A stretch of DNA of 63,710 nt, counting the filler, from Kipferlia bialata (Eukaryota), in assembly GCA_003568945.1 (NCBI GenBank). It is 6 parts of 4 records of this genome, joined end to end, with 100 filler letters (N's around TTAATTAATTAA, not from the genome) between each part and the next. Parts side by side here need not be neighbours in the genome. Positions count along the whole stretch, not along the records: positions 17,635 to 29,239 come from BDIP01000013.1; 5 more parts are not named here. The stretch is one strand, 5' to 3'. Position 1 is the stretch's first letter; the number at the start of each line of letters is the position of its first letter. This document shows positions 10,233-42,612 of the stretch, in pieces. The position numbers and the translations under genes were made by a program. The notes below the pieces were generated by a model, which saw nothing but the letters and a program-made list of their open reading frames with translations, was not told the DNA's origin and did no database searches.

Positions 10233-10628
10233 GGCTATGGCAGGTGAGGCCTAGAGGGGCTCTGTGTCCGACGCAGGCTCTGGTTGACAGATAAAGGTCT
10301 CTCAGGTAGGTGGTCAGTCAGTGATACACAATGGGTCACTCTAGTACAGGACTCTCTCGATCCGACAAGGAACTACTAAACTACACTCTAGGTACTGAAT
10401 ACACACTCCTCTGATCCCAGGAGTGACCACACACCCAGTGACACTGTACCAGAAGAAGAGTGTGGGGGTTGTGGTAAAGTATGAACCCTACACCCTTTTC
10501 TCTCTTTTGTATCCTTGATTAATGGATTGGCAGGTGGACGAAACTTGCCCTCTCTCTCACAGTGGGCATTATAGCAGGGCGTTCAGCGATACGAACAGTG
10601 GGGACAGCCCACTCAGGTCACCTATCTG

Positions 10629-17534: not shown

Positions 17535-17634
17535 NNNNNNNNNNNNNNNNNNNNNNNNNNNNNNNNNNNNNNNNNNNNTTAATTAATTAANNNNNNNNNN
17601 NNNNNNNNNNNNNNNNNNNNNNNNNNNNNNNNNN
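17535..17634. other. Artificial contig linker N44-TTAATTAATTAA-N44
   Basis: 100-nt spacer with stops in all six frames, identical at five places. Confidence 0.97.
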
Positions 17635-17950: not shown

Positions 17951-20471
17951 GTGGATGGTATGTACCATGAGTTGCTATGGGCTATGGATGACGATGACAG
18001 GGAGACAGTCATCAGCTTCTGCCTCGGGGTGGCCAGGCATCTGATAATCGATGAAGAGGTGGGTAGGGACTGGATATATTGCATATACTTATAAGTGAAC
18101 TAACAGTATGATCTATTGTGTGGTGAGGACTCTGAAAGGTATCTTAGTTGGGGGGGGGGGGTTGGGGGGGGCACAAGCCTGTAGTATAATGAGTAAATAT
18201 ACTACTACTGGAGAGTGCACCCCACTATACAATTATTCCTGTGGGATTAGTCTAAATTGTGTGTCTCACTGTAGGACCCAGAGTTTGCCCTTTCTGTCGC
18301 CAATGATACCAAGCTGCTGCCTACTATCATATCATACCTCTCGGAGGGGTATCCTGCTGAGTCATTTGAGGCTGGGTGAGTGGTACTATTACCTACATCA
18401 TTAGAAGAGTATCGGACCGTGTGCATGTTATCTGGTAGTGCACTGTATCCCCTGTGTTCAATGTACCACCGTCTCACCCACAAGTTCCCTGATCGCTCTT
18501 GTTTCTGGTCTGGCACCCAGTGGGTATTACGGCCACCCGATATACTCATGGCCTGTGCAGCGTATGGTGGAGGAGGGTGTGCTAGCTGTGATGGCCCCCT
18601 ACGTCCACAGGGGTACTCTAGGTATGGCAACTGTTTTATGATAGCCTTTCACACTGTATTAGTACATACACGTAAGTATTGGTAAAGGATATCTCACCAA
18701 TCACAGTGTCTGACACTGCTGTGAAGGCCCTCAACAACATCATGCACCACTCCGTCCTGGCAAGGGATACGGTGCTGCAGAACCACACGTTGTTGGACGA
18801 ACTGCTAGCATACGCAAGGCATACATTGTGGCATATGCCAGTCGCTGGAGTCTCTTCAACCTTGAACCCCCTCTCATACTGCGCATCACTTCCCTCTCTG
18901 TGTATTGCTATGTGACTCTCCCGGTCTAACACTCCAGACACGCAGAGACAGACACTGAGGTCGACAATGCCATCGACACACTCCACAGACTCACCCTGTA
19001 CGTTCACCAATAAGTGTATGTCATCCATCTCTCTTCGAAAGTCATATCGGGTCTCTCATTATGTATGCTTGTTGCTAGGTTCTAACCCCAGTGGATTGCC
19101 CATGCCTCTCTTCTCAGACATCAAGGAGGTATGGTCATGTCTAGCATATATCCACAGCGCAGTAATACTGAGAAGAGAATTCAATTCTTTCAATGTCCCT
19201 GTGTCGTGTTCCTGAGCCCAGGTACTACCCATTGCAGCCGAGTACATCAAGACCAGACAGGAGGAGTGGGACCTGGAGAGGCTCATAGCCTGTATCCACA
19301 TCTACACCATCATTGGAAGAAGGTACGCCTCATCCTACGCATTGTGTAGCTAATTCAGTATCATCTTCTCTTTGAGGTGCATTGCTCTGACATGTTCTTA
19401 CACTCAGTGCCGACGATCCCACCGAAGCACTCATGGACGTAGTGGGGGAGGACCTAATCCCTAGGTAATCACAGCTAGTAGTAGTAAGACCATTTGTGAC
19501 GTAGATAGCAGACTATATTGCTAATATTCCTCTTAGTCATTCACAATAGTCAGTCATGCTTCTGTTGGGGCACTCTCTTACTTCCCTTACACAGACTGAT
19601 GGAGCTGAGTCTACATGCCGAGCCGATTGTATGGAGAAGTGCCGTAGACATCCTACACACAATATCCCAAGACATATCCCCAAGCCTCCTAGGGCACGGG
19701 GTCATGCAATACCTCCAGGTACATGTATATAGTCCCATTTGGTCCTTGACTGATATACAATCTCTGGAATATGAGATTAGATGTGTCTCCACCTGACACT
19801 TCCAGACGCTGATGCTACGCTTCGAGGCAGAGGGTGAGGATGAAGAGATGAGGTGGCTGGTCTGCAAGATGGCCAATGCCGCTGCCTTCGGGGAGACGCC
19901 AGAGTCTGAAACCAATGTTGAGATGGCAGTGAGTTCAGGTACCAGCAGATATCCCTCTCGATACTCAATGACACTTCCCTTACTCAAGGCTACGTAGACA
20001 GTGCTGTGAGGCAGCTCAGTATCTGTGGTAACCCCTCTAGACGGTCTGAGTGTTACGGTCACTCCTCGTTCCTGCTCAACCTCCTATCCACTTGGAACCC
20101 CCTCGCCCTAGGTAGTCCTAACCACACATATATAGTGCCACTCGAACTAGGGTATGCATGTACTGATGAGGTGTGATTCCCCGATATGCATTGGTTACTG
20201 ACCCACCAGGCCAGCTGGAGGAGGACAAGAACTTCAAAGCCATGGTCCAAGCATTCGAGACACTGGAAGAGACTGCGCCTGAGTCCCCTGACAGGTGTGT
20301 GTAGTGCAGTGTAGTGTATGTAATGACAGGTCTCTCACCACCAGTGCCTCCTACCTCGCAGACACTGTGTGGTTCCTGCAGTATGTTCTATATGAGGTGT
20401 CAAGCTACCACCACGACCACTCCCACGGCCAAGACCACCACATGTACTGGGTCCAAGAGTTCCAGGCCTAG
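17951..20471 (+). CDS. Divergent ARM-repeat (importin-alpha-like) protein, 5' incomplete
   Basis: Exons such as VSDTAVKALNNIMHHSVLARDTVL and LHRLMELSLHAEPIVWRSAVDILHTIS resemble ARM helices (compare importin-alpha EQAVWALGNIAGD..RD.VL). Ends ...WVQEFQA TAG. Confidence 0.45.
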
Positions 20472-22116: not shown

Positions 22117-24005
22117 CTAGTATCTAATCCTGTGCTGCAGTGTCTGTGCCACTGTGACCGTGTCTCTGGGCTGGGCATCCCCCTGGGTCAGGGTGCACTT
22201 GACCTGGGCGTGAGGGATAGCAGGATATATAACTGTATATAACTGTATATATACTAAATGAACCATTCTGAGTCACGATGCACTTGACCTGAGGGAGATT
22301 GTTGTGATTGACACATATTAATGACACCAACCTTCCCAGATGTCCCAAATGCCGACACCACCACCGCCTGTCCCCTCTCTGTCCCATCACTGGTGAGTAT
22401 GGTGCATGCTAGACCCCCCTTGGCAGAGGATATGGCGGTGGAGGCTGCAGTGTTGTCACTGAACAGACCGGACACAACAAGGCCAGGGCCACCGTCCTGG
22501 GGTTGGGGGGCGTATGAATGTGTATACACATACACACGTACTGGCCACTATACGTGAAACACAGAAGGACGAGATATGCCAGTGTCACTGCAAAGCATGT
22601 GTACTCATACCTTGTCCCTCCTGAGCACATGGCCAGACAGGGTGGAGGTGCATAGCCTGGGGGTGGGGATGGACAGAGCTAGTAGGCACAATAGTACATA
22701 GTACACTAGGTAATAGTTGTCAGCATCTAGTAAATACACACAGGTATACACGCCTTATGCACGGCAAGTCGTGTTCAAATATCTCATGTTCAGTAAGGAG
22801 AGGAGTAATTATATGGATAGATAGATACACACGACCCCACCTTCTGTACGGCAGGTCGTACAGAAACGGCTAACAATAATTTACATGTATTATCATGAGA
22901 ATGATACTGTGAATGATAATGTGTATCACTGCTAACCTTCTGTACGGCAGGTCGTGCAGGTCTGCCGGTGTCTCTATGGGTGTGAGTGTGAATGCCAATC
23001 TACACTGTCCGGCCTGGGGGGGGAGCTCTAGACGGGCACCTAGGTGTTAGTATCAGTAGATATCTATATACATACACAGATATGTATATATCTACGTGGG
23101 TGGTCGGGGAGCACAGGGCGGGTACCTGGGGTAAGGGGATATGGCTAACTACCTACTGTATAGGACTCATTGTCACTATCAGTATATATACTTACACTCT
23201 CCCCACCTAGCAATGGGTGGATATATATATATACATGAATGCAAAAACATATATACAATACATTATATGTATAGTCTCTCTCTCTCCCCACCTAGCAGTG
23301 GGTACTGACCCAGAGGCAGTGGAAGGAGGAGGGGGGCCTTCAACTGGAGGACAGCAAGCATCCTGAGGGTAAGTGCACACACACTGACCTAATGAACAAA
23401 CCTACAACACACTGTACCCAGAACACGTGTATATGCAAACACACCTATCCCCCCTAGGTGCCTCCTTCCCCTCTGCCATGTGTCTGGTGAGGGTATATAC
23501 AATATATGTATATATATATATGCTATACACACCTATCCCCCTTAGGCATTGTCTTCCCCTCTGCCATGTGTCTGGTGAGGGTGTCCTTGAGGGTAGACAC
23601 CTGGGTGTTGACATCCTGGGGTGAGGGGTAGAGAAATGCTACTGAACACTGCTTGTTGAGTCACCGGCACATGGACAGGTCCTGAGCTATATATACTATA
23701 CAATACATATCCCCCCACCTGTCTGGACTGTGTGAAGACTGGGCCCTCACTCTCATAGCCAAGCAGGGTCAGAGTGCCTGGGGTGGGGGTATGGGGTATC
23801 AGGCATTATACGAGAATATGTATATATATATCAATGCATATATATGTCAATGAATGTACCCACCTTGCACCGTATCATGCCCTGCTGTCACACTGAATGT
23901 CTGCCCTGAGTACATGTCGTATGTGAAGGAGGGGATGGGGTCCAGGTACCCAAGCACTCTGTCACACACAGTGGTCATGCCTCTAGGGGTCAGATGCAGT
24001 GTAAG

Positions 24006-24040
<35 letters not shown>

Positions 24041-27000
24041 ATATATATTGCATTGGTACATTATATATGATGTGTCACACACAGTGGTCATGCCTCTAGT
24101 GGTCAGACAGTGTCATAAGCCAGTCCGATAGCATATATGACAATTGAATATACATACGTGTATCAGTATAGTACTGATCCATGTGCCACAGACACTGGCC
24201 ACGCCTCTAGCGTGAGTCAGTTCATAACAGTCTCACACAGGTGTCAATATACACCACCCCACCTCTCTCCCTCTGTTGTCTCCCGAGGTGCAGCCAGTAT
24301 CAGTATCAGTATCAGTATATACACTTCTACACAGAACCACTAGATATATATACACTCACACTCCATACCTCTCTCCCTCTGTTGTCTCCCTGGGTGCTGT
24401 CAGGAACCCTCTCTCACTCATGGCAGAGAGGTCAGGGCCCTGGGGGTTAACATTGCTGATAGAGAATATATATAAATATGCCATACCAACCCACCTTCAG
24501 CAGCACCCCTACTCTCTCCCCCACCGATGCCTTGGTGACAGAGGCACCAAAGGCCTGGATGGACTGGACCTGGGGGTGGGGGTTATATGATATATATGTT
24601 CATATATATAGGATATAGGATATAGGAATATTACACTAATAGAAGAGTATGTGCCATCCGTGAATCTAGTTTGTTGGCAACGTAAGTACACTGTGCTACC
24701 AATGTGCCCATACCTTGGAGGGTGTGGAGGCCGAGGTGTCACCTGGGGGTGAGACAAGTATGACAGAGGAGGGCCCAGGAGAGAATAGTACAAAGAAGGA
24801 TACACTATCAATTAGACACACCTTGCAGAGCAGGCACCACCACTGCATTCCCCACTGCCATGGAGCCAGACATANNNNNNNNNNNNNNNNNNNNNNNNNN
24901 NNNNNNNNNNNNNNNNNNNNNNNNNNNNNNNNNNNNNNNNNNNNNNNNNNNNNNNNNNNNNNNNNNNATATATATATAATATACATATATATGCATATAC
25001 CTTGCAGAGCAGGCACCACCACCGTGTCCCCAACTGCCATGGAGCCAGACATACTCTCTCTCTCTCTCTCTATATATATATACATATATACATATGTATA
25101 TACCTTGCAGAGCAGGCACCACCACTGCATCACCCACTGCCATGGAGCCAGAGAGGATGGTGCCAGTCACAACTCGGCCACGGCCTAGGGATTAGGGACA
25201 GAGACATAATGGCCATAGCAGAACACGCATAAAATATACATATACATAGATATATATACATCTATATATATGTATATATGTATGACAGGATGGTGCCAAT
25301 CACAACTCGGCCACGGCTAGGGGGTGAGTGATGGGTACTGTTAACTCTCTTCCTCCTATACTTTACAATGCTACCTAACTATATGGAAAGTATCGGGTAG
25401 AGATTGTCCATGCTGGATTTGACAAGACTCAGAGACACTACCCCATCATGAATGAGTGATCCTGTCAGTATCAGCATATATAGTACATTCACACTCTATA
25501 TCTCACCCTTGATGTTGAATGAGTGGTCATACAGCATGGCCAGTATCAGTATCAGTATATGTCTATACAGTACTCTATATAGTATACTACCAGCCTATAC
25601 TCTAAACTATACCACACTACCCCACCCTTTATGCTGAATGAGTGGTCGTATAGCATGGCCAGCCCCTCCTGTCCCATCTCTGCTCTCCTGGACACTATGC
25701 CAGACATCTCCCTAAGCACCATGGTTCTGGGAAGTTAGAGTGTATATATAGACAGATATATACATATGTATGTATATAGAGTATACACATATATATACTA
25801 TATGCCAGACATCTCCCTAAGCACCGTGGTCCTGGGGGGTTGGGTATCATACACCAATATATATACTGTATATACCTGTGTATATATATCAATATATGTA
25901 TTCATATACTACCTCCCTCACAACCATGGTACTGGGGGGTGAGATCCCTAGGAGACAGACACACGTGATATACCAAAAAACCATATATTAATGACTACAG
26001 ACTAAACTCAGACACATAATGATGAGGAAAGTCCACAACTGCGTCTCTAATACACCTTAGGTCTCTACCAACACGTGTCGAGTCTACAATCTGGGCTAGC
26101 AACATCTATATCCATACCTCAGGTGCTGTGTGAGAGCACTATCATGTATATATATATATATATATACTGTTCATTTCTGATATACATACTGTATCACTAT
26201 GTCAAAGTATACCTCAGGTGCTGTGTGAGTGCTGAGACTGGGGCTCTCTCCAACTCGGGTACAGCAGCTGGGGTAAGAGGGGGATAGATAGCAGACAAAG
26301 GAGAGAGAGGGGGGAAATAGGTGCAGGTGTGGGCGAGAGACAGAAAGAGAGAGAGAAAAGAAACACCCACCTGCCATGGGCACTATGGGTGCATCCCTCA
26401 GTAGCTTAGAAGGAACATATATATACATGAAGAGAGAGAGCATGTATATGTATATATATCTATATACCCCACCTGCCATGGGCACTATGGGTGCATCCCT
26501 CAGGAAGGTCTTCCTGAGTCTCTTCCTCAGACCGGCCACGACCTAGGGGGTAAGTGATATGCACTGAACACATATATACATACATATGCTCTCTCCTGCT
26601 CAGACCTGTTGAGGCCTAGGGGATTGGAGGACACCCTAACTACATCATGTCATACACATTCATATATATACATACGTATATATACGTATACATACCTTGT
26701 CCACCGCCACCTTGGCTGGCACCCTGTCCACCTTGTTCAGAATGACCAGGCAGCGCTCTCTGGGGGTAAGGGACATTGGTGCATGCATATACATAGAGAG
26801 ACAATACACATACACGTTGAATACTCCCCCACCTCGGCATCAGGACAGTGCCCTACCCCTCCACTTAACGAATACTCAATATGCACTCATGTGCTGTATA
26901 TCCCATGTACCAACACACCTGTATATACATATGACCTATGCAATACATATATCTATATATATGTTCTGCCTACCTTGGCACCAGTGCGTGCATCAGGGCC

Positions 27001-27586
27001 ATGCACTCCACGGTCTGGGCCTCAATGCCCCTAAGGAGTTAGACAGAGACAGCTATATGGATACAAACAATACATTTATGGCCAAATAGTTAAGGCATAT
27101 AGATAGGACTGTGCACTCCGCGGTCTGAGCCTCAATACCCCTTAGGAGTTAGACAGAGACAGTTATATAGATATATGAGGACTGGATTAGTAGAAGTATT
27201 GGCTTGGAGATACTCTCTCCACGGTCTGGGCCTCAATGCCCCTGGGATCAGTAGATCGCTATATAATGCATATTGAATCTTTAGTATATGCCATATAGAA
27301 GCATATAATCGTGTAAAGCGATAGGTCACCCTCTAAAAATACCTGTGTACCTTGTTCCTTCCACCAGTATGGCCACAAAGAATAGAATAATGTATATGTA
27401 TCCGAGTACATATATGAACACCCGATACACTCTCAGACTATGACACATAGTCCCGTCCACCATCCGCCCATACACACATATGTATACTCTTGTATCTCTA
27501 TCTTAGTAGACTGTATATGATACCTTGTCCCGTCCACCACCAGTATGGCCAGGTCCATGATACGGGCACCACCTAGAGTTGGATGA

Positions 27587-27619
<33 letters not shown>

Positions 27620-28284
27620 TCTACAGGAGGTGAGGGGGGTTGAGCCTCCATCCGTGTCTGCATATGTCTGAGACACGCCTCCAACCCACCCATGCCCTCA
27701 GACTCCCAAGTATATAGATAAGTACATAGAATACAGTGCAGATACATACCTAGCACTGTCCTCAATAGTGATGCATGACCTGGACAGTCCACCAGAGTAT
27801 GTATATATATATATATATATATGTCCAGTCCATATATACACTATATACATATCCACATGTTTACACCTAGCACAGTCCTGAGTAGGGATGCATGGCCTGG
27901 ACAGTCCACCAGGGTGATTGAGACAGAGTGGTCAGGCTGGGATGAGACGAATACCACGTATATACATATATATATACACATATACACATATACATAAGTA
28001 GTTTACATTATAGAGAGTATGTCACCCGGGTGAAGGACACAGCGTGGTCAGGCTATGTGTCAGGGGATAGTATTATGTCTCAGAGTATATATATTACTAT
28101 CCATATACACACCTCATCACTCAATGGCAGTGTAAATGTGCTGAACCTAAGAAAGGTGCTGATACACATTCATTAACACTATATATGCAGAAGCAATATA
28201 CTATTCATCCTCACCTCCTCACTCAGTGGCAGTGTGAATGTACTGAACCCTAGGTCTATGGTGATGCATTTTTCATATACATAC

Positions 28285-28317
<33 letters not shown>

Positions 28318-29062
28318 TATATACTCTATGCATATACTATACCTCCTCACTCAGTGGCAGTGTGAATGTGCTGAACCCCAGGTCTATGGTGATGCCCCTT
28401 CTCTTGGACTCGGGGTGCTTGTCAAAGCCTAAGGTTAAGGGTACACATAATATATACAGGTTACAACACATATACATAGAAAGGGAGGATAGCCATTTTG
28501 GACTCGGGGTGCTTGTCAAAGCCTGGGGTTAGACATCAAGATACACATAGGACAGTTAGAGAGACATAGAGAGAGAGAGAGAGAGAGAGAGAGTCCATAT
28601 GCTTGGACTCGGGATGCTTGTCAAAGCCTAAGGGGTAAAAGAGAGGTATATGTAAGAATATGCATAGTCATAGGGGGTGGGGGAGACTGTGTGTAGGACC
28701 CTGGGTGTTATTGACAGGCTAAGTGGGTGGAAGAATCTAGACAGAGAGAGGGGAGGTAGGGCTGTAAGGGAGGAGAGAAACTATGGAAAAGAAAGGAAAG
28801 GGAGAGATAGGAAGAGGGGAAAGGGGGTGGGGTATATAGAGACGGAGAGGGAGGGCGAGAGAGAGAGAGGACACATACACACATCTACCTGCCGTTGAGC
28901 AGTGGACATGGCCCTGGCAGAGAGAGAGAGAGAGAAGAGAGAGTCTAGTATAGTATATAGTCTAGTATATAGAGTATATATATATATGTAGTGTATATCA
29001 TAGCATAGTACCTGCCGTTGAGCAGTGTGTGGACATGGCCCTGGCAGTGGAGGTCTTGCCAC
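22117..29062 (-). CDS. EEFSEC: Selenocysteine-specific elongation factor eEFSec (SelB), many small exons, 5' end cut by contig edge
   Basis: GKTSTARAMSTHCSTAGFDKHPESKRRGITIDLGFS, ITLVDCPGHASLLRTVLGGARIMDLAILVVDGT, GIEAQTVEC and C-terminal SAFGTSGKVKC match eukaryotic eEFSec signatures. TAG at 22117. Confidence 0.88.
27740..28635 (-). repeat. Intronic direct repeats of eEFSec exon ends (exon echoes)
   Basis: Partial copies at about 27750-27795, 28113-28147, 28215-28267, 28497-28522, 28603-28628 around real exons 27867-27935 and 28343-28428. Confidence 0.9.
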
Positions 29063-29239
29063 TGGGGGTGAGAGAGGTGAGGGTATATCATAGAGAGGAA
29101 CAACCAATAGTATCAGTATAGTCAGAGGAGGACAACATACTCTGTTCAGTGGAGGTCTTGCCACTGGGGGTGGGGGGGGGAGAGAGAGAGAGAGAGAGAA
29201 GAGAGATTGAAAGGGAGATGGAGAGGGGGGGGGGGGGGG

Positions 29240-29339
29240 NNNNNNNNNNNNNNNNNNNNNNNNNNNNNNNNNNNNNNNNNNNNTTAATTAATTAANNNNN
29301 NNNNNNNNNNNNNNNNNNNNNNNNNNNNNNNNNNNNNNN
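29240..29339. other. Artificial contig linker
   Basis: N-TTAATTAATTAA-N. Confidence 0.97.
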
Positions 29340-29402: not shown

Positions 29403-32400
29403 GTGGGTGTGGACGGTGCCCCAGCAGCCTTCACCTCCTTCCTCGAGGACTTCCTGCCCCTGATATCACCCGATGCCGTGCTGGTGTCAGGGGACCTCAC
29501 AGACGGGGCAGATGACATGACTACGAGGTATATGTATATGTACAAATCTTATATAGTATTGTGTATTCTGGCAAGACAACCAGTATATGAGTCCATATAT
29601 TGAGTATCAGTATAAGATGTCATAGAGATTTACATGGCATGGTAACCAGCTATCGAACCTGGGTAGTAGTTACGATGTTATGTGCTTCATTTTTGGTCTG
29701 GTGTAGAGTCTCTACTAGAGAGACTTACCCCCAGGTACTACAGTGCGATACTGAGTAAGGAGTCCCAGTACACTCTAGATGGAGACACACCCAAGTCAGA
29801 TGACGAGAGTGTGACTGTCCCTGCTGGTTGGAGTGAGTACCGGTCAGAGCTGCTGTCCCATGGGCTGCTCTCCCCCTCCTACACATTGGACGTGAGGGGG
29901 GCACTGGATAGCACCAGACTGACAGGAGTGGACAGTGACTGCAACTACTACTGCGCGTACTCAGCGTCATCCATCAGAGCATCGCACTGCCGCACATACA
30001 GTGGGGAGGACACGGAGGACGAGGAGTCAGTGATAGACACCGCTGGGGACTGGGGGTCACACCCACTGGCATCTGTCTCCTATCCCTCTCCCACAGAGTA
30101 CCAGGCCCTGATAGCATCTGCAGACACATCCCTGGACACAGACGAGTGAGTGGGGTGCATCATCTCTCACTCTCCTATACTCTATGGCTCACACCCCTAT
30201 CCCCTCACTCTCAGGTACGACTCTCTGTTTGCCCACTCTCTGACCCGTCTTGACCACCGTGCTCTAGAGATGGAGGGGGGATGGGTGGGGAGTGAGGCGT
30301 CGGATCGCCTCCTGCCCCTGTTTCTGGAGGTGCCGTACTCAGGCACAGGGATAGGGGCTGAGGGGATAGATACCATCAGGTATGCAGTGCTGGATCAGTG
30401 CTGAGTGGATGTCTTAGTATCGCATATATGAGCCGTGTCTTCCTCACCCCCTAGGTACCAGATCCTGGGTGTAGACAACTCGCCCTACCCTGGTATGGCC
30501 CCTGGGCTCAGCACCATGCCTGTGATGGCCCCTGTATTACTGGAGTCCACACACGATGTCCTGTCACACATGGGGGATGGAACAGGGGTACCCTCCTCCA
30601 CCCTGGCCATACCCCCTGTCACAGTCAGTCCACATGGGATAGGGGCCCTGGCCAACCCCTCAGACCTCGCAGACATCCTCCACACACACAAGGTTCCACT
30701 CCACCTATCAGCCGCCACAGTCCTGGGCCAGGTCAGCAGGTGGGTGCAGAGTGTATGTGAGAGTGTGTCTCTTGGTAATTGTATTGGTATACACTGCTTC
30801 TGACCCTGTAGGTGGGGTCCCTGTCTCTCTGTGGCCACTGTCTCTGCCAGCTCATCATCCTTTGCCAGGACCACTCTAGTGGCCTTTGACGGTCCATTAC
30901 TAGGTGTCACCTCTATTAGGCTGGACGAGGACACCCTTAGTAAGCCCATTGTGACAGTGATCAGCCCCATGGAGGCATCTGTGGTGTCGTTCGACTACCA
31001 GCGCAGAGCACAGTTTGAGTTGGTACCCTACACCCCCGATGAGGGTGAGGGGGAGGGTGTTGATGAGGATAACCCCTCCTTCGTGACTGCCCTCCATATC
31101 AGAGTGTTGGTGCACAGCAGTGACCACATATCCAGTGTGGAGTACGGACTGGACGGGGGTCTCTTTGGCGATGTGACCTACACCCCTTTGGACTACGCAG
31201 GGGACAGGGCGCAGAGGACACTCACTGCCCCAGAAGTGGCCGAGGACCCCCCTGGGGTAGGCCCCTCCAGTGACACTGGGTCATATCTCTACCAGGGCAT
31301 GTGGGCTGACTACCCGGCCTCTGATGGGACCCACACCTTAGTGCTCAGGGTCAATGTCACGTCTGTAGTGCCGGACACTGAGTCTGCCACATGCCTCACA
31401 GAGGGAGAGGGAGAGGGTACTGGGGAGTGCAGCAAGTCTGTTGTTGTCTCCCACGAGTACTCCCATGACTTCACCACTCTCTCCAACACCCCCTCCCCCG
31501 TCAACTCCCTGGATACCACCTGGTTCGGCATGGTGTCAGGCTCCATACACCCTGGCCAGACATACAGACTCATCTACTTTGTGTGTGTGGGGTTCTCCTT
31601 GGTCACCATAGTCATTCCAAGGCTGCTCTGGGTGCCGTATCTACGGTCATCGGCTGAGATATCGGCGGTGTACGCCACATCCCTCGACACAAACGCCCAG
31701 GTAACTACTGTCACAAATACGTATTGACTCTCTTCCCCCTCTCACACTGGTTTCTTACCCCTCAGGAGGTGCGATACTCTCTGGCAGACACAGAGAAGGG
31801 GTTCAGAGCGTACCACCTAGCCCGGTATCGGTATCAGTATGCCAAGATGTACGTGCTGTGTGCAGAGCACCTGCATCGGACGATGCTGACCAAGGGCGAC
31901 CAGCTGACCTTTGCTCTGCTTGAGAGGGGCAGGATAGAGAAGAGGAAGAAGAAGAGGCGGAGGCAGCGCAAGCAGACGAGGGAGAGAGAGAGAGAGCTGG
32001 AGGCTGCCTCCAAGACCCTGCCCAGGACCCTCTCCCGCACCCGGTCTGCCTCTGAGATCAGTCTGGGCCTAGACAAGGGGGACATCGATAGCATAGACCT
32101 CGCTCCCTCCACAAACATGTCAAGGTGTGTGTAGTAGTGTGTTCCCCAACTATGCACTGTATGTATGGATACTTCAGCTCCATCCCCCTCACCCCAGGTT
32201 CTTCCTGTCCAGTGAGTCCACTGGGGCTGAGCCGCAGTGCCTCCACACATTCTCGGTCAGTGCTGCCCAGCAGCCTCTGAGGTAACACCTCTAGCAGTGT
32301 CTCAGTATATACTCTCCCTTCCTCACGTCTTACCCCCCAGGCAGCGTCTGAAATGCTTCACCGACCCAGACTACAACCCCTATGGCAGTGAGCCCTCCTT

Positions 32401-33394
32401 AAGGCATGTCCTGTGGGACCTGCCCCCTGTGCGGTGGCTGGAGGACAAGGCGGTGCTCTTCATGTGCAGGAGAATGGGGACCCCGATGCCTTTGGTACGC
32501 AGATGTATATGTATTTGTGAATATACGTTGTCTGATAAGAGTATCACCCACCCCTGACCACCCAGGTGTTTGTGTGCCTGGTCCTGCCCTTCTGCCCCCA
32601 CCTGATAGGCAGTGTGGCAGCTGGGAGTGGGTGGGCCAAGCCGGGCATAGCGGCACTGGGTGATGCCGAGTATGCACCCCTGGGCGTGACATACTTCCTG
32701 GGGTGTCTGGTGTACATGCTGGCCATCTTCCCTATCGACTCATACTCCCTAATCAGTGGCAGGTTCCTTCTAGCCACTCCCCCTGACCTCTGGCTGTCAT
32801 CCAGGGCAGAGCAGGTGAGTAGTGTATGTATACATATGTAGTCTAGTATACTAGTAGAGACTGGCTCTGACCCCCCAGGTGTCTGACATTCTGTTCCCAA
32901 GGGGAAGGTTCACATCCACCTTCCCAGAGGCTATGGATCGAGAGAGGAGGAGGGAGAGACCCAGGCCCATCGACGTCAGGCAACACATATCAGCAGAGCC
33001 AGAGAGAGAGAGGAAGACGCACAGCCGCAAGGGCTCCTCCGTGGCCACCTCCTTTGACAGGAGTGACGCTGCGTCAGAGACGGACGGGGCATCGGCCAAT
33101 GCACTGCTCAGACCCACCCGGACAGAGGACGAGCTCATGGTGACACCCAACCCCACCCTGGCATCGGTCAAGAGCCAGTGGGTGAGGTATCGCAAGCTGT
33201 CTCCGTCCAGGATTTCTAGGGAGTTTATCGGGGTGGTGCACATATTCATTGCCCTCCTGGGGTGTGTCATGCTGTGTGTGGAGTCAGAGAGCAGTGCTGG
33301 CACACAGGGGCTCCTCATATCCCCTATTGCGCTACCCCTCACCCTCCTCCTCGCCCTATCAGTTGTGGGTAGGGTCAGGTCGGGCAGGCAGTGA
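29403..33394 (+). CDS. TMEM62: TMEM62-like protein (metallophosphoesterase-fold domain + Ig-like region + C-terminal TM helices), 5' incomplete
   Basis: FLPLISPDAVLVSGDLTDG, WSEY...LDVRGALD, ILGVDNSPYPG, LHIRVLVHSSDHISSVEYGLDG follow the TMEM62 motif order. Multiple C-terminal TM segments. TGA 33394. Confidence 0.7.
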
Positions 33395-33721: not shown

Positions 33722-35373
33722 ATGCAGTATGGCGATCCAGACCAGTACGCTGAGTCTGTACAAGGGCATCCTGACCTGGCGTTGAGCCAGACCCAGTTTG
33801 AGGACGTAGAGGAGCCCGTAGAGGAGCCCAGTGCTGTCACAGGGGATGTTGTGCTTTCAGGTCCATGTGAGAAGCTCACCAAGGGGCTTATCAGCAAGTG
33901 GAGGCCCAAGTGGCTGATTCTGACTGCCGATGCTCTGTTTGTGTGCCCCCTGCTGGAGAACTGCCCAGAGCTCAAGCCCAACGAGGCCCTGGCCAAGGCA
34001 ATTGCTCTCTCTCCTGAGCACACAGCCACTGAGGTTGTTGCCGCTGGGCACAAGCTGACCAAGCAGCGCACACACATTATGCAGCTGTCTGTGGAGGGTA
34101 CCAAGACCTGGTTCAGCTTTGCCACTGCCATTGAGGTGCAGGACTGGACAGACGCAGTGGTCAGGAGACACGAGAGTGTGGTGGTGAGGCCCCCAGGATC
34201 TGCAATGGCCCTGTCTAAGCTCTCACAGCTGGCAGAATACGGAGCAGGTATGTATCAGTGTGTATTGTTTGTACTGGCTTGTGATTGTGTGTTGCTTCTT
34301 AGCACCTGTAAGAGATATTGCAGTTAGAACACGTCCTCTTTACGCCAACGTGGGAGAATGCTGTGTATTACCCCCCCCCCCCCCTTTCTCTCTTACCCCC
34401 CTAACATGCAGGCCGTGCCCCGAGTGACGGCGTGATGGTGATGAGACCATACGGGCTGAACGAGGAGGGCAACCCAGTGGAGAACGAGACCCCCATCAGA
34501 GATCCCGAGGCAGAGGGTGCTATATCCGAAGGGGGGGAGACCGCCTATGACTTCAACGAGCAGTACCAGGCCTATGTGGATGAGTGGGCCGCCCTGCCCC
34601 CCAACCTGTCTGATCAGGAGCTGGCACAGCGCACCATGGAGCTCAGCACAGGTGGGGTGGTACTTGTATGGGTATTGATACTCCTACGGTGTATGATTAT
34701 TTCCATACTGTATGGAACCACTTGTACATGTTTCTGATAGTCACTGGGGGCTTGGTATACTCATCCGCCCTTGTGGACTTTGCTGGTCTCTCTCTCTCTC
34801 TCTCTCTCTCTCCCCTTCTCCCCCCTCTACATATCTAGCCTCACTCCCAGGCATGGCCCGTGTGATGCGTCAGTTTGCGGCCTTCTGCACCCTGCGTGCC
34901 CGGCTGATAGTGGACGAGATGTCTCTGAGGCCGGACGAGGCCTCCACCCCGGCTGTTGTGCCTGAGGGGGAGGAGCCCGGCCCCACATACTGGCCCGACA
35001 CCTGGGCCTGCGATGGAGTGCTGTACAGAGTGGCCCAGGGGGATGTCAACACCACCCTGGCTGCCCACCCCCTTGACCCATATGCTCAGCAGCAGGGGAT
35101 GGGGATGGGGATGGACCCCAACATGGGAGGCATGGGAGGGATGGGAGGGATGCCTGGTGGGGGGTACGATCCCTTCAACCAGGGCTTCAACAACCCCTTC
35201 CCCGGCATGGGTGATGGGGCAGAGGACCCCGACGCTGTGGACGGGGCTGCCCAGGCTGAGAAGGACACGGTGCCCATGCAGATTGCCATGCACGAGCTGG
35301 GGGGAGTGAGTGCATACCTCTCTGCCCATGTGGAGGGCCTGCACCCACCCCTCATGTGTCTGGTGGACCACAG
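33722..35373 (+). CDS. PH domain + Clu domain protein, 3' part missing
   Basis: SGPCEKLTKGLISKWRPKWLILT...EVQDWTDAV (PH). DFNEQYQ...F...ARLIVDE...DGVLYRVA...IAMHELGGVSAY...LHPPLMCLVDHR (Clu-type motifs). Confidence 0.65.
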
Positions 35374-35442
35374 GTATTGGTTGTACATGATACATGCATA
35401 TATAAGCAGTCACTTGTGTGTATATCAGGATGATATCATCCC

Positions 35443-35489
<47 letters not shown>

Positions 35490-35630
35490 ATTCCCAACCT
35501 CCTTTTGCCTATAGGGTATCATTTCATCCTACCCCAGTCCTCCAAGTACAAGACCATGCACATACACTTACAGTATAAGTATTCATATATACGGTCATGA
35601 ATATGTATATATCTGTCTATCTCACCCCAG

Positions 35631-38600
35631 TCCTCCAAGTACAAGACCATGTACGACAGGCGTCTCAGGAGTCTCCAGTTCTCAGACAGGTAAGCGTGTC
35701 ATATATATTGTTTATAATGGAATTTCATATGTATATATTGTGTGTGTATTGAACTATTCTTATTGGTGTTAGTTTGGAACCTGCTCAGGTATATAATACA
35801 TTAGTGATGTATAGTATGTACCTTACCCCAGGCTGACCAGGCTCCTTGGGTCAGGGTATGTGCAATACATTTATAGTATGCATATACATATGTATATATA
35901 CACATATGCAAATGGGTATATACTCACCCCAGGCTGACCAGGCTCCTTGGGTCAGGGTATATATATATGTGTATTTGTAAGTACACAACTAGATGATATT
36001 CAATTTCTATCGTCCCCACCACCAGGCTGACTAGGCTCCTGGGGTCAGGGTATGTGGAGTACATGGGGGAGGACACACGGTGGGGGGGGAAGCAGCTCAT
36101 CACAAGGGGGAGGTACAGACAGTGATACACACTCGTATATATATATGTGTGTATGTATGTATATATATATATATATATATATATAGGGGAAGCAGCTCAT
36201 CACAATGGGGAGGTACAGATGCTGATACACACTCGTATATGTATATATGTATGTATATATTTATATATACACATAGGAGAAGCAGCTCATCACACGGGGG
36301 AGGTGGGGCCGATATGTAGTGAGTCACACTGCTCAGATTATGGGTGTATAATCCTTTTGTCTATCCCTCTCACCCTAGTGAGGACTTTGGCCCTGTCAAG
36401 CACTGTGGGGAGAAGATACTTGCAGAGAGGTGAGCTGTAGTGAATCAATAGTATTCAACTTCCTGTCTCTCTCTCCTTCAATCTAAGTCACCCCACCCTG
36501 ATCCGTTCTCTGCAGTACATGCACTTTGATACATCTACTTGTACCTTAGATATGTACACATACACTCCTTGACCCCAGTCTGATCCAGTCTCTGGAGTGC
36601 ATGGTCTTACATATGTGTTAATTACTATAACTATTGCATCTGTATATTTGTATATATATACTGACCCCAGCCTCATCCAGTCCCTGGAGTGCATGCAGGA
36701 TGCAGACATGGGCACAGAGGACGCAAAGGGTATGAATAGTTTTAATAGTGTTTTATATGTATATTTATAGTACTAATCACATATATATGGTTGTTATTGT
36801 AATATATATGAGTGGCACAGAAGACGCATAGGGTTTGTTTGTATAGTGACAATATATATAGTACTCATTTGTTACGGTATGTATTCATTCACAGTGGTAC
36901 CCTCAGCCCTCACACTCATTATTGCAGGCTGCTCTGACCATTGTTACTATGTGTGTGTTTGTATGTGTATATATTCATACTTACCCCCCAGACTCCTTCC
37001 ATGCCAGGAGGGATGCCCTAGCTAAGTGGGCCAGGGGGAGGTTCCAGACAGAGAAGGCAGAGGTATATATGAATATATATATTCATATATATACACATAG
37101 ATATGTACATTTACTTGGTAATAGTATATATATGGGGGAGGTTCCAGACAGAGAAGGCAGAGGTACACTTACATAGTATATACTATGTAACGCAGATAAT
37201 AGGTACATGCACTACTGCACATACCTCACCCAGGTTCAGGCTGACAATAATGCTGATATGTATACATATATCAAGGGTGTATTCTGTATGCAATATCCCC
37301 ATGCTCATGACCCAGGTTGAGGCCGACGAGCACATCGCTGCTGCCATGGCCTCTGACACCCATACCCTGTGCATCAGCAACGACACAGACATGATACTCG
37401 GGAAGGTATGTGTCTGTCTCTCTAACACGATTCATATTGGGACCATATATATCTCTCTACACGTCAACCCATGGTGTCTTCACTACCATACCTCCCACAA
37501 TATATGTTACAATGTATATAATAATATACTTTATATATGATATATACTATACATGGTTCTCCTCACATCCAGAACTCCCGTGTGTGCCGTGTGGACGATG
37601 TCATCAAGGCCTTTGCATGTGGCACAGAGATACCCGTGTACACATCCAAGTACCTGTCACAGAGGGTGCTGGGGTGCAGGGAGGTACGGTAGTAATAGGA
37701 CATATTGCATCAATCACTATAGTGGACCTCCTCTCTTTACTTTCGTCATTCACCCTAGGACATGCTCCCCATTGTGTCCTGGGCATGCTTCAACGACACA
37801 ACCTCGGTACGGTGTATGGATACTACATACATATATGCACATCAGAGAGAGACCTTCCCCCTACCACTATCCTTCCAATGACACGTGTACATTATACATG
37901 AGTCCAGAGAGTACTTGTCCCCCCTCCCACCACAGCACATGCGCCCCCTTCTCTCTGCCTTCTGGACTGAGTACGACACGGTGTCAGCCACCCACCCAAT
38001 TGAGGGTGTGAGAGAGAGGGGACCCGACCAGCGTAGGGTGACTGCTCGCACCGGGCCCAACAGGGGAAGTGCAGGGTGGGGTGCCAACAGGGGTACTGGG
38101 CAGACACATGCCAGGCAGAGAGGGGGAGCCAACGATAGGAGAGGCGGGTACGGGGGTGGGATGAACAGGCAGCAGCAGCAGCCAAACAACCACTTCAGGT
38201 ACAGTACAGTATGTGGTATATGGTATGGTACAATGTGATTCATATCCGTGGTGTGTCTCACACTCTCACTGTAGGTCCACCCCCACCCTCACTGGAGGGA
38301 GGATGCTGCTGGCCAGTCTATACCCAGCTGGGGATCAGGTATGCATGGACATGTACAGGCACATATATCAACACGATTCATGAGTACTGCCTATCGATAT
38401 TGAGCGAATGAAAGGAGTATGTGTGTCTACTTTAGTGAATGTACCCTCTATTCCCATGCCCCTGCTCTACTCACCCCTAGGTCGGCAGGGACCACAGGGT
38501 GGGAGAGCGCCACATGGCAGTCGGGAAGTACGTACCACATTTAGAGCGTTCTATATCCTATACCCTTTCATGAATATATTGTTGGGGATAATTCCTCTAT

Positions 38601-39821
38601 AGTCTCCCTGTCACCTCTCTACCGCTTACATATGTATTATTGCTCTGTATGTAGTGTGCAGTCTCAACACCACATGCACCACATGCACCGCATATACATC
38701 TGATTATGTATACATATTATATGTATTGAATTTTTTTTGTTATATATGTATTACTCCATATACATTGTCACTCACCCCCCCAGGTGGTGCAGCCTCAACA
38801 CCACATGCACCCAGGCCAACCACCCCTTTGTGAGGGTGCTCGCAGAGGACAGGTTCAGGAGGTACTTGGCCTGCTATCACGTGTGTCACACACAAAACCA
38901 TACCTTGTTTCTCTCTCCGATATTTAGTGTATTGGTATTACTTCTCAGAGGACAGGTTCAGAAGGCATTGATATCCACACACCTCCTTCTTGCAGCTGTA
39001 GACAATTCGGAAGGGTGTAAAGTGAGGTGTATCTATTTCTCTCATTCCAACCCCAGCCTTGCCGTTGCCCTTGTCTGCACATACAGAGACCTGCAGTACC
39101 CTTTGCCAGAGACACTAGTGCAGTACCTGCCAGCAGATGAGGTGGCCCCTACAGTACCCACTCCCTCTGTGGAGGAGGAGAGAGAGGACGGTGGGACCCT
39201 GTCCCTTCTGCCACCCACAGCTGACACGGCACAGGAACACGAGGTATACAACTCCTAACACATGCTGATATATGCAGTCTAAGGACCGTTGCTATTGGAT
39301 ACTTCTCACCTTAGGCTGCCTGCTTGGCCTTTGGTGTCAGTGCTGCAGCTAAGGGAGAGACACACGTCCCAGACGTCAGCATGGCACACAAGGAACAGGT
39401 ATATATATATCTATCATGACTTACAAGAGTCGTGTATGTAATTTTATGTATTTAACAATATGGCACACAAGGAACAGGTATAGTCGCAGTAATCCCCATA
39501 TATATCCAAATGTAACTAACTTTCGCTTTTCACCTTGCCCCTCACCCCAGCACACCCTGCTGGCACAAGCCCTGGCTGACTGTGAGTGCGGCATAGCATC
39601 CACCATGGACACGAGGTATGTATGCATACATATATATATGTGTATATTGGAGATGGTATCCATATTGTAGGTGATATGTATATGAGTACATAGAGTTTAG
39701 GTCATAGCTCACCCCAGGGGCTTCAGGTCCAAGTATGTATATAAGTGATAAGTATATGCATTGGTTCAACTAACCCCAGGGGCTTCATGTCCAAGTATAT
39801 GATATATGATAGGTGATATAC

Positions 39822-39852
<31 letters not shown>

Positions 39853-42612
39853 ACTCACACCCCAGGGGCTTCATGTCCCGGTTCATCCAGACGGTGTATC
39901 ACAAGCCAGAGGGATACGGAGGGAGGTATGTGGGATCACCTGTGATGGAGGAGTCTTCTCAGTCTACTAATACTCTGCCAACTTGCTCTCCCCCCAGACC
40001 CGTACCCCAGTTCAACATCGGCACATCTCTGCTCAGTGCAGTAACAAGGTGGGGTGCTGTAACTATATATACTACCAGAGTAGTAGTAATAGGTAGTTAG
40101 TTCTTCTGAGTACCGCAACTAGGTAGGATGTCTGTTACCTACATATTGAAAGAGAGTATTGGTTTCTCTTTAAGTAGTCTCAGCCAATGAGTCTCCATCT
40201 CACACCAGGTCTCTGCTCTCCCCTGAGGGTGGTGCTGGATACATCACGGGTCTACTTCCTGTACCTACAGCAGAGGCACAATCACTCATAGGAGACAGGG
40301 TATGTGAGGATTAGGATGCTTCATAGGTTGTCTCACACTCAGTTGAACCAATCAGACTCTCAGTCTCCCTAACCCCAGGTCGTTGTCCCCTTCTCCCTCC
40401 TCAAGTGGAGGGACATGGACCTCAGCCAGACCAGGGAGGCCCAAAGTGCGTGTAGCATATATGAGTGGTATATAGACATATGGGACAGTTACATGTATGG
40501 CTACATGCTCCTTACCCCCAGCCTTCTCTGCCCTTGGGTACAAGACCATGGACGTCCCATTCAGACTCAAGTATGTGTCATATGGCATGTATCATATATA
40601 GTTTGTAGGGTCTCTGCCTTATTTGCCCTCCTGTGCCTCTGATGCCCATGCATCCATATGTTAAATAGACTGTACAGTATCATGCACTACATATAATACT
40701 TCCTTCCAACCAATTATATATATGTAGTTCCTCTCTTCCTCACTGAGGAATCCTCACCCCCAGTGTGTCTGCTGCCCATGCTGCCATGAGTACAATTCAT
40801 TCATATACTGATACATATCAATGTATATGTATATCAATGTAGTATTATGTACAAGTATTGATTCTCTTCCTTACCCCAAGTGTGTCAGCTGCCCATGCTG
40901 CAGTATATATACCTCTATTACACCATTCACTATCTCTCATATATATAATGACTCACCCCAGTGTCTCAGCTGCCCATACCGCCATGCAGAGTGGGGCACA
41001 GGAGGAGGAGATACTGGCTGCACTCTTTGCAGGTACCACTGACACACTAGAACACCCATACATATACATATGTACACATTAATGTATATAGTACCGTCCT
41101 TAGAGGAGGAGATACTGGCAGCACTCTTTGCAGGTAACATTTACATGTATAAACATTACTAGTATACAATGGATATATGGATATATATGAATGGTACCAT
41201 CCTTAGAGGAGGAGATTCTGGCAGCAATCTTCGCAGGTATATATATGTGTGTGTATACCAGTCACTCCTCATATCTCATACACTATATGTGTATGTGTAG
41301 AACCAACCTTCTGTTTAACCCAGGCGTGCCAGGCTACCCCGAGTCCACCCTCACCACCTATGGTGGGAGTGCACCTACAGCAGACGTGGTAGAGGCTGTA
41401 GCACCACGCACCACTGGCAGGTACATACCCCCTTCCCAGAGGCGTCCCCCTGCCAGGGTGAGGGCACCAGTCCCTGAGCCTGTCATAGAGTATAGAGACA
41501 GTGTGGAACTGACAATGTCCTGGTTCCAGTTGGTGCTGCACCCATTCAGAGAGAGCATTGACACAGGTACTAGTGTATTCTGGGCTTTGTTTCATCCATA
41601 TAGTAGTGTATATGTGTGTCAATTGTGGTCTATACTGCTCTCACCCCCCAGACACCATCCGCCGTGTAGTATGTGCCTGCATGCCCTGGGTATCCGAGGA
41701 TAGGGCACCCACCTACAGCGAGGTCCAAGTGTCCCTGGTCACCAGGACAGCCCTGCTGACATATGCATACATTGCCCACCTGCTCAATGCCATGGGTACG
41801 GACACCTGATATGAGGTCACTATTAGATGTTTAGAATGCATCTTCCTGTATCTCACTGTTAGGCATGCCCCTCTCTGAGCTTGACCTGTCTCTCCTCGGC
41901 CTACTCCTGGACAGACACCTATCATCAGACCAGACAGCATACCAGAGAGGGGAAGGTACTCTCAATGCCACTTCTCAACAATACCCCATATAGAAGTCTT
42001 CTCAGCTATCAACATGCATTGATGCATATTTCCCTCTCACCCCAGTAGCCTCCACCTCTGCCCCTACCCCTGCCCTGGGAGATGGATGGGCCACCACAGG
42101 CCAGAGGGGTACCCCAGGTAGCACCGGTGGCATTGCCTCCTCCACCTTCATGTGGGCCAGTGTGCTTAGGGAGGGCAGTCCCGCCCCACCCAAGCCCCCC
42201 TCTGTATACACCCACCCCTGTGAGGGCACCGGCCCTGCCTGCCTGTACGGGTACATCAAGGAGGTGGCAGATAGGGTCGGGGTGGCCCACGAGTGCTGTG
42301 GGATGAGACCAGGTATAATACTAGTGTATATACACACACTATTTGTGTTATACTCTTTGGTTCTAACTAATCTCAGGCACCCCCACCTAATGTCTGATGG
42401 ACAATACACTATACACAACTATACATAGAGAATGCATTGTACATAATACATGTAGCTAATGTGTAGGTACCCCCACGTGGTGTCTGATGGACGGCGAGAT
42501 GTTCCTTCACACCGTGGCACAGGCCAGGAGGGGGGAGACACCCTCCTCCAAGGTACGGGGTCTGATGGAGGTGTTCCCTAAGGCAGGGGACAGGGGGAGT
42601 GTGTTCCTGTAG
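35631..42612 (+). CDS. FAM120/asteroid-like protein with FEN/XPG-type PIN domain and RGG-rich insert, 5' incomplete
   Basis: VEADEHIAAAMASDTHTLCISNDTDMIL (EAD...SxDxD PIN motif), RGG/NRG-rich exon about 37908-38197, C-terminal ECCG..P..PTWCLMDGEMFLH as in FAM120. TAG 42612. Confidence 0.6.

What the first reader, a model, noticed from the sequence alone, without database searches (positions are those of the whole stretch)
27750..28630. Echo copies diverge almost only at synonymous sites (eEFSec GTPase exons)
Real exon: ...cca GGC cat gca TCC cta CTC agg ACT gtg cta g|GT. Echo (27750-27795): ...cca GGT cat gca TCA cta TTG agg ACA gtg cta g|GT. That is 5 substitutions in 4 codons, all silent (PGHASLLRTVL kept), although the echo has no evident acceptor and lacks the 5' part of the exon. 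Around the neighbouring upstream exon: CTG>CTA and AGC>AGT (28215-28267); TTC>TTT, CTG>TTG, GAG>GAT (28113-28147); AAG>AAA (about 28500); CAC>CAT (about 28613). Dead intronic DNA should not respect the reading frame. Possible explanations (inference): echoes are pieces of diverged functional alleles captured by unequal crossover; or echoes are repeatedly recombined or converted back into the exon so selection sees them; or they are used in mRNA by unusual splicing or template switching.
Basis: partly seen in the sequence, partly recalled or inferred. Interest (0 to 1): 0.88.

Follow-up and report, generated by a model that had tools for sequence, protein, structure and literature searches.

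The report
Fossil allele fragments inside protist introns
In a free-living relative of Giardia, about a third of the introns examined carry an unspliced half-copy of the neighbouring exon that differs from the working exon mostly at silent positions and keeps its own good splice site, which likely makes these copies captured pieces of other working alleles and would let one genome reveal past recombination between diverged strains.

Summary
The echoes are real DNA in the eEFSec gene of Kipferlia bialata. DNA contigs cover echoes and exons at the same depth, and the one RNA contig uses only the real exons. 'Almost only synonymous' is overstated: one listed change is E>D, one lies at a junction, and nearby echoes carry missense changes and a frameshift. 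The bias still holds when pooled. Over 81 echoes, 54 of 367 four-fold sites differ against 36 of 1427 zero-fold sites (ratio 0.17). A dead copy beside a selected exon gives about 0.5; 0 of 400 simulations reached 0.17. Echoes also keep consensus splice sites that differ from the exon's own, and identity collapses right at GT/AG. Best reading (inferred): each echo is a dead piece of a diverged working allele, left by out-of-register recombination. Donor alleles were not seen (one isolate only). The scan noted a similar silent bias in a sea urchin gene, where exon-only selection sufficed; here it does not. I found no description in print.

The parts
22117..29061 (-). eEFSec gene, 21 exons modelled, 530 codons open to the stop; the 5'-most exon lies beyond the contig end at 29239
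   Evidence: open frame, GT-AG; RNA contig positions match the model within 0-3 nt; 100% identical in the tested exon to K. bialata KIPB_004854; Pfam euk_SelB_III 30.8 bits, cut-off 27
28343..28428 (-). real exon (G2 motif region, RGITIDLGF), used in mRNA
   Evidence: RNA piece 28343-28430, 0 other letters
27867..27936 (-). real exon (DCPGH motif), used in mRNA
   Evidence: RNA piece 27864-27936, 0 other letters
27937..28342 (-). 406-nt intron holding two donor-type echoes and one acceptor-type echo; absent from the mRNA, one joint from first donor to last acceptor
   Evidence: joint 27936-28343, CT..AC, depth 307.5
27750..27795 (-). donor-type echo of exon 27936-27867: last 46 nt plus its own donor GTATGT; 5 changes, all silent
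   Evidence: DNA contig 27628-27791 at depth 765; no RNA cover
27796..27866 (-). TA-rich spacer: used donor, no acceptor, joined to the echo start
   Evidence: its TA run (27792-27831) is skipped by the laying tool, so no listed contig bridges it
28215..28267 (-). donor-type echo of exon 28428-28343 (53 nt, 2 silent changes)
   Evidence: inside DNA contig 28001-28268, depth 789
28113..28147 (-). second donor-type echo of the same exon (35 nt, 2 silent, 1 E>D)
28498..28522 (-). acceptor-type echo of exon 28428-28343 (25 nt, identical), own acceptor
   Evidence: same DNA contig as the real exon, 28333-28553, depth 795
28602..28627 (-). acceptor-type echo of the same exon (26 nt, 1 silent change)
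   Evidence: DNA contig depth 724
28889..28920 (-). donor-type echo of exon 29061-29012 with a 4-nt frameshifting deletion
29012..29061 (-). real exon (end of the P-loop); an identical 17-nt acceptor-type echo lies at 29147-29163
   Evidence: RNA loose ends

Best explanation
The echoes are unspliced partial copies of one exon end plus one splice site, and each is likely a dead piece of a diverged working allele, predicted to be left when two alleles recombine about 100 bases out of register, one breakpoint in an intron and the other inside the exon. SHOWN: the copies exist at full DNA depth. The main eEFSec mRNA skips them. They differ from the exon about six times more often at four-fold than at zero-fold sites. 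They keep consensus splice sites unlike the exon's own, and similarity ends at the GT or AG. INFERRED: silent differences and the different intron end were already present at birth, because both parents were functional. After birth the echo decays neutrally (missense, stops and frameshifts grow with divergence). Only half-exon products survive, since an echo with both splice sites would enter the mRNA. Surviving products have an intron-sized, AT-rich spacer, which likely lets the spliceosome keep the splice-site pair nearest across the exon. The join is likely made by homologous invasion at a neighbouring exon with overshoot, then alternative end joining or a template switch.
For: Silent excess: 54/367 four-fold vs 36/1427 zero-fold, ratio 0.17, CI 0.11-0.26 over 47 exons. 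0 of 400 dead-copy simulations reach the observed ratio in each of 6 settings, medians 0.54-0.58. Genes outside eEFSec give 35/229 vs 19/958, P=1e-6, or 2e-4 with shared changes counted once. The effect holds for all four bases, and 9 of 54 four-fold changes involve CpG. Wrong-frame controls give 4.4 and 5.6. Silent share falls as echoes diverge: 22/27, 34/49, 20/44. At silent differences the exon has the commoner codon 31 times and the echo 31 times. GT kept in 38 of 41 (one more GC), AG in 31 of 33. Echo site scores equal real sites (donor 1.87 vs 2.08, decoys -1.09; acceptor 6.45 vs 7.2, decoys -8.85), yet differ from the partner site at 2.9 of 6 and 6.0 of 12 positions; 0 of 2000 neutral-decay simulations match. 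Identity falls from about 0.93 in the exon to 0.5-0.7 just past GT and about 0.3 beyond. 66 of 76 flanks are no more alike than random introns, 26 of these beside echoes without a substitution. No echo exceeds 0.66 of its exon or has both sites. DNA depth 724-795 on echoes and exons alike; RNA only on exons. Metamonads lack Ku/DNA-PKcs and fornicates lack Rad51A but keep two Dmc1 (PMC8516963 section 8).
Against: No donor allele was seen: only 2 runs of one sample hold the stretch, and a metagenome scan gave 2 unrelated eEFSec genes. The model needs alleles whose introns are unalignable while four-fold sites differ by only about 15%. Spacers are not ordinary introns: AT 0.72 vs 0.62 at matched positions (P=1e-5), and used splice sites beside echoes are weaker than average (donor 1.27 vs 2.28, P=0.025; acceptor 3.2 vs 8.0, P=0.003). 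This needs an extra filter or fragility assumption. Spacer lengths are tight (medians 71 and 74 nt), not uniform. Looser end-trimming raises the pooled ratio to 0.28-0.36. The plain silent share (61-66 of 110) is not significant under the most extreme mutation spectra tried (P up to 0.27). 17 of 75 neighbouring intron pieces do align. Gene models other than eEFSec are my predictions, unchecked by RNA.
Confidence: 0.55

Rival explanations
1. Same-chromosome tandem duplication of the exon-intron border, then short allelic gene conversion replaces the live exon with other alleles while the echo stays frozen, and the intron halves turn over fast by microsatellite slippage. It also needs diverged alleles and recombination, but after the duplication, not in it.
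For: Explains silent bias and codon symmetry equally well. 17 of 75 neighbouring intron pieces still align. Changes shared by two echoes are 10 of 10 silent, as expected for changes in the exon. The farther echo is the more diverged in 10 families, the nearer in 4, 4 ties.
Against: 26 echoes without a substitution have unrelated flanks. With only 2.5% zero-fold divergence, introns would have to turn over more than ten times faster than point mutation, up to the base after GT, while an unused splice site stays at consensus.
Confidence: 0.15
2. The live exon end plus its TA-rich spacer is a newly made piece (error-prone copying with de novo filler during break repair). The echo is the retired original end. 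Selection removes new pieces with missense errors, so silent ones remain; no second allele is needed.
For: Spacers are AT/TA-rich and the inner core is ordinary (0.72 vs 0.63 paired, P=4e-4). Used sites are weak, while innermost echo donors score like ordinary donors (2.22 vs 2.28).
Against: It needs about 10% errors per base, far above known polymerases (own knowledge), and of all kinds (25 of 45 four-fold changes are transversions). Copying would have to stop within a few bases of GT or AG nearly every time. Codon preference is symmetric.
Confidence: 0.1
3. Echoes are in current use: spliced into minor or condition-specific mRNAs, used as recursive splice points, or looped out at DNA level in some cells, so that selection keeps frame and splice site.
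For: The conservation profile looks like that of a selected exon end. Missense changes are slightly conservative (P=0.06). Contigs drop rare variants, so minor forms are not excluded.
Against: The RNA contig shows exon letters at 40 of 40 diagnostic sites from 12 echoes and has the exact exon-sum length. 4 of 81 echoes are frameshifted, 2 have stops, 28 carry a missense change or indel. No enrichment of AG-ending (25/32 vs 76/98) or GT-starting exons (7/25 vs 35/105). Each echo has one splice site only.
Confidence: 0.07
4. Ordinary dead tandem duplicates; the silent bias comes only from purifying selection on the live exon, plus a lucky choice of region.
For: Accounts for part of the bias (38-52% silent expected). 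An earlier unchecked scan note reached this verdict for a sea urchin gene.
Against: Expected ratio 0.54, never below 0.29 in 400 runs at the trimming used, against 0.17 observed. Other genes give P=1e-6. It does not explain unrelated flanks or different consensus splice sites.
Confidence: 0.07
5. Assembly artefact: two alleles joined through microsatellites.
For: The unit length clusters near 100 nt. The flagship echo and its exon are separated by a TA run that no listed contig bridges. The DNA run may be the window's own source.
Against: Single contigs hold exon plus echo (28333-28553), three echoes (28001-28268), or four exons with their echoes (26474-27575), with 0 other letters and depth 724-928 throughout. 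At 92% likeness no DNA contig runs on into unlike sequence, so no second intron leaves the exons.
Confidence: 0.03

Closest known systems
Internal gene duplication and tandem exon duplication (Letunic 2002; Gao and Lynch 2009; seen only as cited in passages of PMC3342872; Gao and Lynch not held)
   Same: Short tandem copies of exon sequence inside the same gene.
   Different: There, whole exons in 7-17% of metazoan genes, generally linked to mutually exclusive splicing. Here half exons with one splice site, in 45 of 129 gap-free introns, skipped by the main mRNA, with a two-functional-parents signature.
Intron gain by tandem genomic duplication around AGGT (PMC3443670, passages)
   Same: Local duplication that leaves exon-like sequence in an intron.
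   Different: There an exonic segment is duplicated and its two AGGT copies become a new donor and acceptor. Here the copy straddles an existing splice site and no new intron is seen in the eEFSec mRNA.
Staggered (unequal) homologous recombination, e.g. Dscam exon arrays (Lee et al. 2010; title seen in a reference list only; not held)
   Same: Out-of-register exchange at exons between homologous sequences.
   Different: There between paralogous whole exons, making used chimeric exons (recalled). Here inferred between alleles, one end in non-homologous intron, making unused half exons.
One-sided invasion / coupled homologous and end-joining repair of double-strand breaks (recalled; search gave one unrelated review, listing only)
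   Same: One end copies a homologous template and the other is joined without homology, leaving a partial duplication.
   Different: Known from reporter assays in plant and mammalian cells (recalled), which have Ku. Not known to me as a routine source of intron structure; metamonads lack Ku (PMC8516963).

Membership tests
eEFSec (eukaryotic SelB) gene | Translational GTPase motifs plus EF-Tu domain 2 and eukaryotic SelB domain 3 | tested here: met
   Motifs read in the spliced model. P0002 hits euk_SelB_III at 30.8 bits (cut-off 27); GTP_EFTU_D2 is below its cut-off.
eEFSec (eukaryotic SelB) gene | Delivers Sec-tRNA with SECIS/SBP2 | not testable with these tools
   Function not assayed.
Tandem exon duplication with mutually exclusive splicing | Whole exon copied with both splice sites | tested here: not met
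   Longest echo is 0.66 of its exon; 76 of 81 have exactly one site, 5 none, none both.
Tandem exon duplication with mutually exclusive splicing | Copy appears in mRNA | tested here: not met
   Main eEFSec RNA contig only: exon letters at 40 of 40 diagnostic sites. Rare isoforms are not visible in contigs.
Intron gain by tandem genomic duplication | Donor in the first copy spliced to an acceptor in the second copy | tested here: not met
   No echo letters in the 9 RNA pieces listed; not tested in the other genes.
Dead same-chromosome duplicate (pseudo-exon relic) | Zero-fold/four-fold difference ratio of 0.5 or more | tested here: not met
0.17 (0.11-0.26); 0 of 400 simulations.
Dead same-chromosome duplicate (pseudo-exon relic) | Duplicated intron flank as similar as the exon part; unused splice site decays | tested here: not met
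   66 of 76 flanks unrelated; 58 of 75 with whole pieces; echo sites at consensus.
Unequal recombination product between functional alleles | Both copies bear the marks of past function (silent bias, consensus splice sites, equal codon preference) | tested here: met
Unequal recombination product between functional alleles | Donor alleles exist in the population with echo variants in their exons | not testable with these tools
   One sample only; no relative in the metagenome scan.
Unequal recombination product between functional alleles | Spacer and core both look like ordinary introns | tested here: not met
   Core ordinary, spacer AT-rich; needs a survival filter or fragile-allele bias.
Unequal recombination product between functional alleles | Junction microhomology or templated insertion | not tested
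   Junction contexts were printed but not scored; microhomology merges into the alignment.
Recursive splicing (AG|GT ratchet points) | Echo ends enriched for regenerable AG|GT sites | tested here: not met
   25/32 vs 76/98 AG-ending; 7/25 vs 35/105 GT-starting. Splicing intermediates not testable.

The most novel reading that the evidence does not exclude
Kipferlia runs a routine exon-end swapping cycle. Recombination between diverged alleles, which can pair only at exons, keeps installing a new exon end with a new TA-rich intron end and retires the old one into the intron. Introns are thereby rebuilt from their ends, and a single genome archives several past alleles of each exon: genomic evidence of outcrossing in a free-living fornicate, and of exon-definition splicing in a short-intron protist.
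Probability: 0.3. Interest if true: 0.82.

Novelty: new variant of a known kind. Interest (0 to 1): 0.62.

Why it matters
No sexual or parasexual process has been observed directly in Metamonada (PMC8516963, passage). If echoes are captured alleles, the roughly 125,000 introns of this species (PMC5874029) hold a large dated sample of past alleles. From it silent diversity (about 10% at four-fold sites, inferred) and recombination could be measured in one isolate. The echoes also act as natural minigenes: the mRNA skips consensus-strength decoy donors and acceptors lying about 100 nt from weaker used ones, which makes splice-site choice testable in an intron-rich fornicate. They may also explain how its introns grow and turn over. 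Practically, echoes mislead gene prediction: the public protein P0002 begins in an echo.

Tried and rejected
No whole genome is held for the window, so the count stops at 14 gene models in this window. No RNA holder on record was listed; run X2 is RNA by the tool's guess, and it shows spliced joints. No loop-out joint and no other letters were listed; contigs drop rare forms, so this is weak. The joint table was crowded by microsatellite noise (15 of 75 rows shown). A metagenome pattern scan found 2 eEFSec genes of unrelated eukaryotes, no Kipferlia relative. A search with P0002 found only itself. Changes private to one echo (21 of 41 silent) were rejected as a clean test, because an exon change between two echo births also looks private. 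CpG hypermutation (9 of 54) and base composition were rejected as causes. A cDNA template was considered and dropped, since echoes keep intronic splice motifs. Alignments under score 32 were left out: 94 echoes at score 26, with false positives 2 of 380 at score 30. Free ends were trimmed to a 6-base match. Five echoes without a splice-site end were left out of the flank test and seven out of the splice-site test. The first simulation timed out and was rerun lighter. No structure or complex prediction was run; it is not relevant.

Full report
1. What the locus is. The interval lies on the minus strand of a gene whose 21 modelled exons (29061 to 22117) give an open frame of 530 codons with GT-AG introns. 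One exon matches at 100% a public protein labelled Kipferlia bialata KIPB_004854. That protein passes the Pfam cut-off for eukaryotic SelB domain 3, so the gene is eEFSec of a free-living fornicate. A 1904-nt contig of run X2 (RNA by the tool's guess) lies on the exons at positions that match the model within 0-3 nt. Nine exons are listed directly as pieces with 0 other letters; the rest are checked by summed length only.

2. The observation. The flagship echo (27795-27750) has the five silent changes reported, and five more listed silent changes are there. GAG>GAT is missense, and AAG>AAA falls at the end of a copy. In the interval 12 of 15 differences are silent; in the rest of the gene 13 of 32. 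The region was a favourable sample.

3. Real DNA, not in the main mRNA. Over 27500-28720, DNA contigs lie at depth 765 on the flagship echo, 787 on its exon, 789 on a contig holding three echoes, and 795 on one holding exon plus echo, all with 0 other letters. Longer contigs run through four or five exons unbroken at 910-928, so no second allele with other introns shows. Caveats: the DNA run may be the window's own source; the TA run between the flagship echo and its exon is skipped by the tool; contigs drop rare variants. The RNA contig joins 28343 to 27936 across three echoes and carries exon letters at 40 of 40 echo-diagnostic sites from 12 echoes.

4. The pooled test. I built 14 gene models with a small gene finder and curated them by hand; only eEFSec is RNA-checked. 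They give 81 echoes at 47 exons, in 45 of 129 gap-free introns, unevenly: 24 in eEFSec, none in five models. Of 120 differences, 24, 16 and 80 fall at codon positions 1, 2 and 3. The right null is not an even spread. A dead echo changes everywhere and the live exon adds silent changes, so zero-fold sites should differ at half the four-fold rate. Observed are 54 of 367 four-fold and 36 of 1427 zero-fold sites, ratio 0.17, bootstrap 0.11-0.26. Simulated dead echoes put through a like alignment and trimming give 0.54-0.58, and 0 of 400 reach the observed value in each of 6 settings. Against this, eEFSec outside the interval gives 0.35 (P=0.23), and looser trimming gives 0.28-0.36. The plain silent share loses significance under extreme mutation spectra. 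The silent share falls with divergence (22/27, 34/49, 20/44). 4 echoes are frameshifted, 2 have stops, 30 are identical, 23 differ only silently and 28 carry a missense change or indel.

5. Anatomy. Each echo is one end of the exon with one splice site: 41 donor-type downstream, 35 acceptor-type upstream, 5 without a site, none longer than 0.66 of the exon. Between copies lies a spacer of median 71 or 74 nt. Identity between copies is about 0.93 in the exon part, 0.5-0.7 in the four bases after GT and about 0.3 beyond. 66 of 76 flanks are no more alike than random introns, 26 of them beside echoes without a substitution; with whole pieces, 17 of 75 align. Echo splice sites score like real ones and far above decoys, yet differ from the partner site almost as much as two random real sites. 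Neutral decay never gave this in 2000 trials. At silent differences neither copy has the poorer codon (31:31). This is the profile of two exon ends that both worked until recently.

6. Mechanism (inferred). Two alleles that align at exons but not in their microsatellite-rich introns recombine out of register. One supplies the whole exon and most of its intron; the other supplies half the exon, its splice site and its intron. Whole-exon duplicates and exon deletions would be purged. Repeats of the event add new echoes next to the exon; the farther echo is the more diverged in 10 families against 4. Metamonads lack Ku and DNA-PKcs, and fornicates lack Rad51A but keep two Dmc1 (PMC8516963 section 8), so invasion plus alternative end joining or a template switch is the likely route. 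Echo-exon conversion or loop-out alone leaves the ratio at 0.5 (my reasoning). Unexplained: spacers are AT-rich (0.72 vs 0.62), tight in length, and the used sites beside echoes are weak. A survival filter (AU-rich sequence marking intron, as recalled from plants) or fragile TA-rich alleles could account for it. So could newly made filler, which I keep as a rival.

7. Known or new. Closest are internal and tandem exon duplications and intron gain by tandem duplication (PMC3342872 and PMC3443670, passages); the echoes fail their defining tests. In the species' genome paper (PMC5874029: abstract, passages, sections 5 and 12), 'duplicat', 'heterozyg' and 'ploid' do not occur in the main text; its supplements were not read. 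PMC8516963 was seen as passages and section 8. Ten literature searches (listings and abstract starts only) showed no description; subscription journals are largely outside the library. Gao and Lynch 2009 and Lee 2010 were not held. An earlier unchecked scan note on a sea urchin gene explained a 40% silent share by exon-only selection; I had applied that null before seeing it, and it fails here.

8. Verdict. Observation partly confirmed; allele capture the best reading (0.55); a new variant of internal duplication by unequal recombination; interest 0.62.

Noticed in passing
window 24820-24870 and protein P0002: The public protein model begins inside an echo (it has N where the real exon has D), just after the scaffold gap; echoes corrupt gene annotation.
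   Followed up: partly
window 33722-42612 (+): Long gene or two genes (PH-like and CLU-like exons, both below Pfam cut-offs) with 18 echoes. The frame does not join across the poly-C run near 35440-35490, a likely assembly gap.
   Followed up: partly
window 6453 vs 6337 (-), 17124 vs 17208 (+), 6897 vs 6762 (-): The echo's acceptor scores far better than the acceptor of the full exon; good cases for an RNA test of which site is used.
   Followed up: no
window 35832-35862, 35933-35960 (+); 39718-39794 (+): Acceptor-type echoes that also contain an exon-internal GT and could form in-frame micro-exons of 24 or 15 nt; my gene finder included them.
   Followed up: no
all introns of the window: The branch-point-like motif (CTHAC type) sits directly before a C-rich 3' splice site, and 101 of 130 exons end in AG.
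   Followed up: partly
window 29425-33394, 45684-47416, 17951-19322, 56822-58256: Four gene models with 28 introns have no echo at all, while eEFSec has 24 in 20 introns; echoes cluster by gene or region.
   Followed up: no
L001, L002 vs window 27500-29061: Two unrelated eukaryotic eEFSec genes read straight through the first three Kipferlia intron positions (by eye), hinting at lineage-specific intron gain.
   Followed up: no
window 17535-17634, 29240-29339, 50203-50302, 53734-53833, 56103-56202: N44-TTAATTAATTAA-N44 linkers join separate contigs, so neighbouring genes across them are not true neighbours; breaks fall at poly-G/C runs.
   Followed up: no
window 3350-5174 (+) and 10617-15454 (+): SUI1-domain (DENR-like) gene and RING-SPRY gene, with 6 and 9 echoes; several keep alignable flanks and look like echo-of-echo duplications.
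   Followed up: partly
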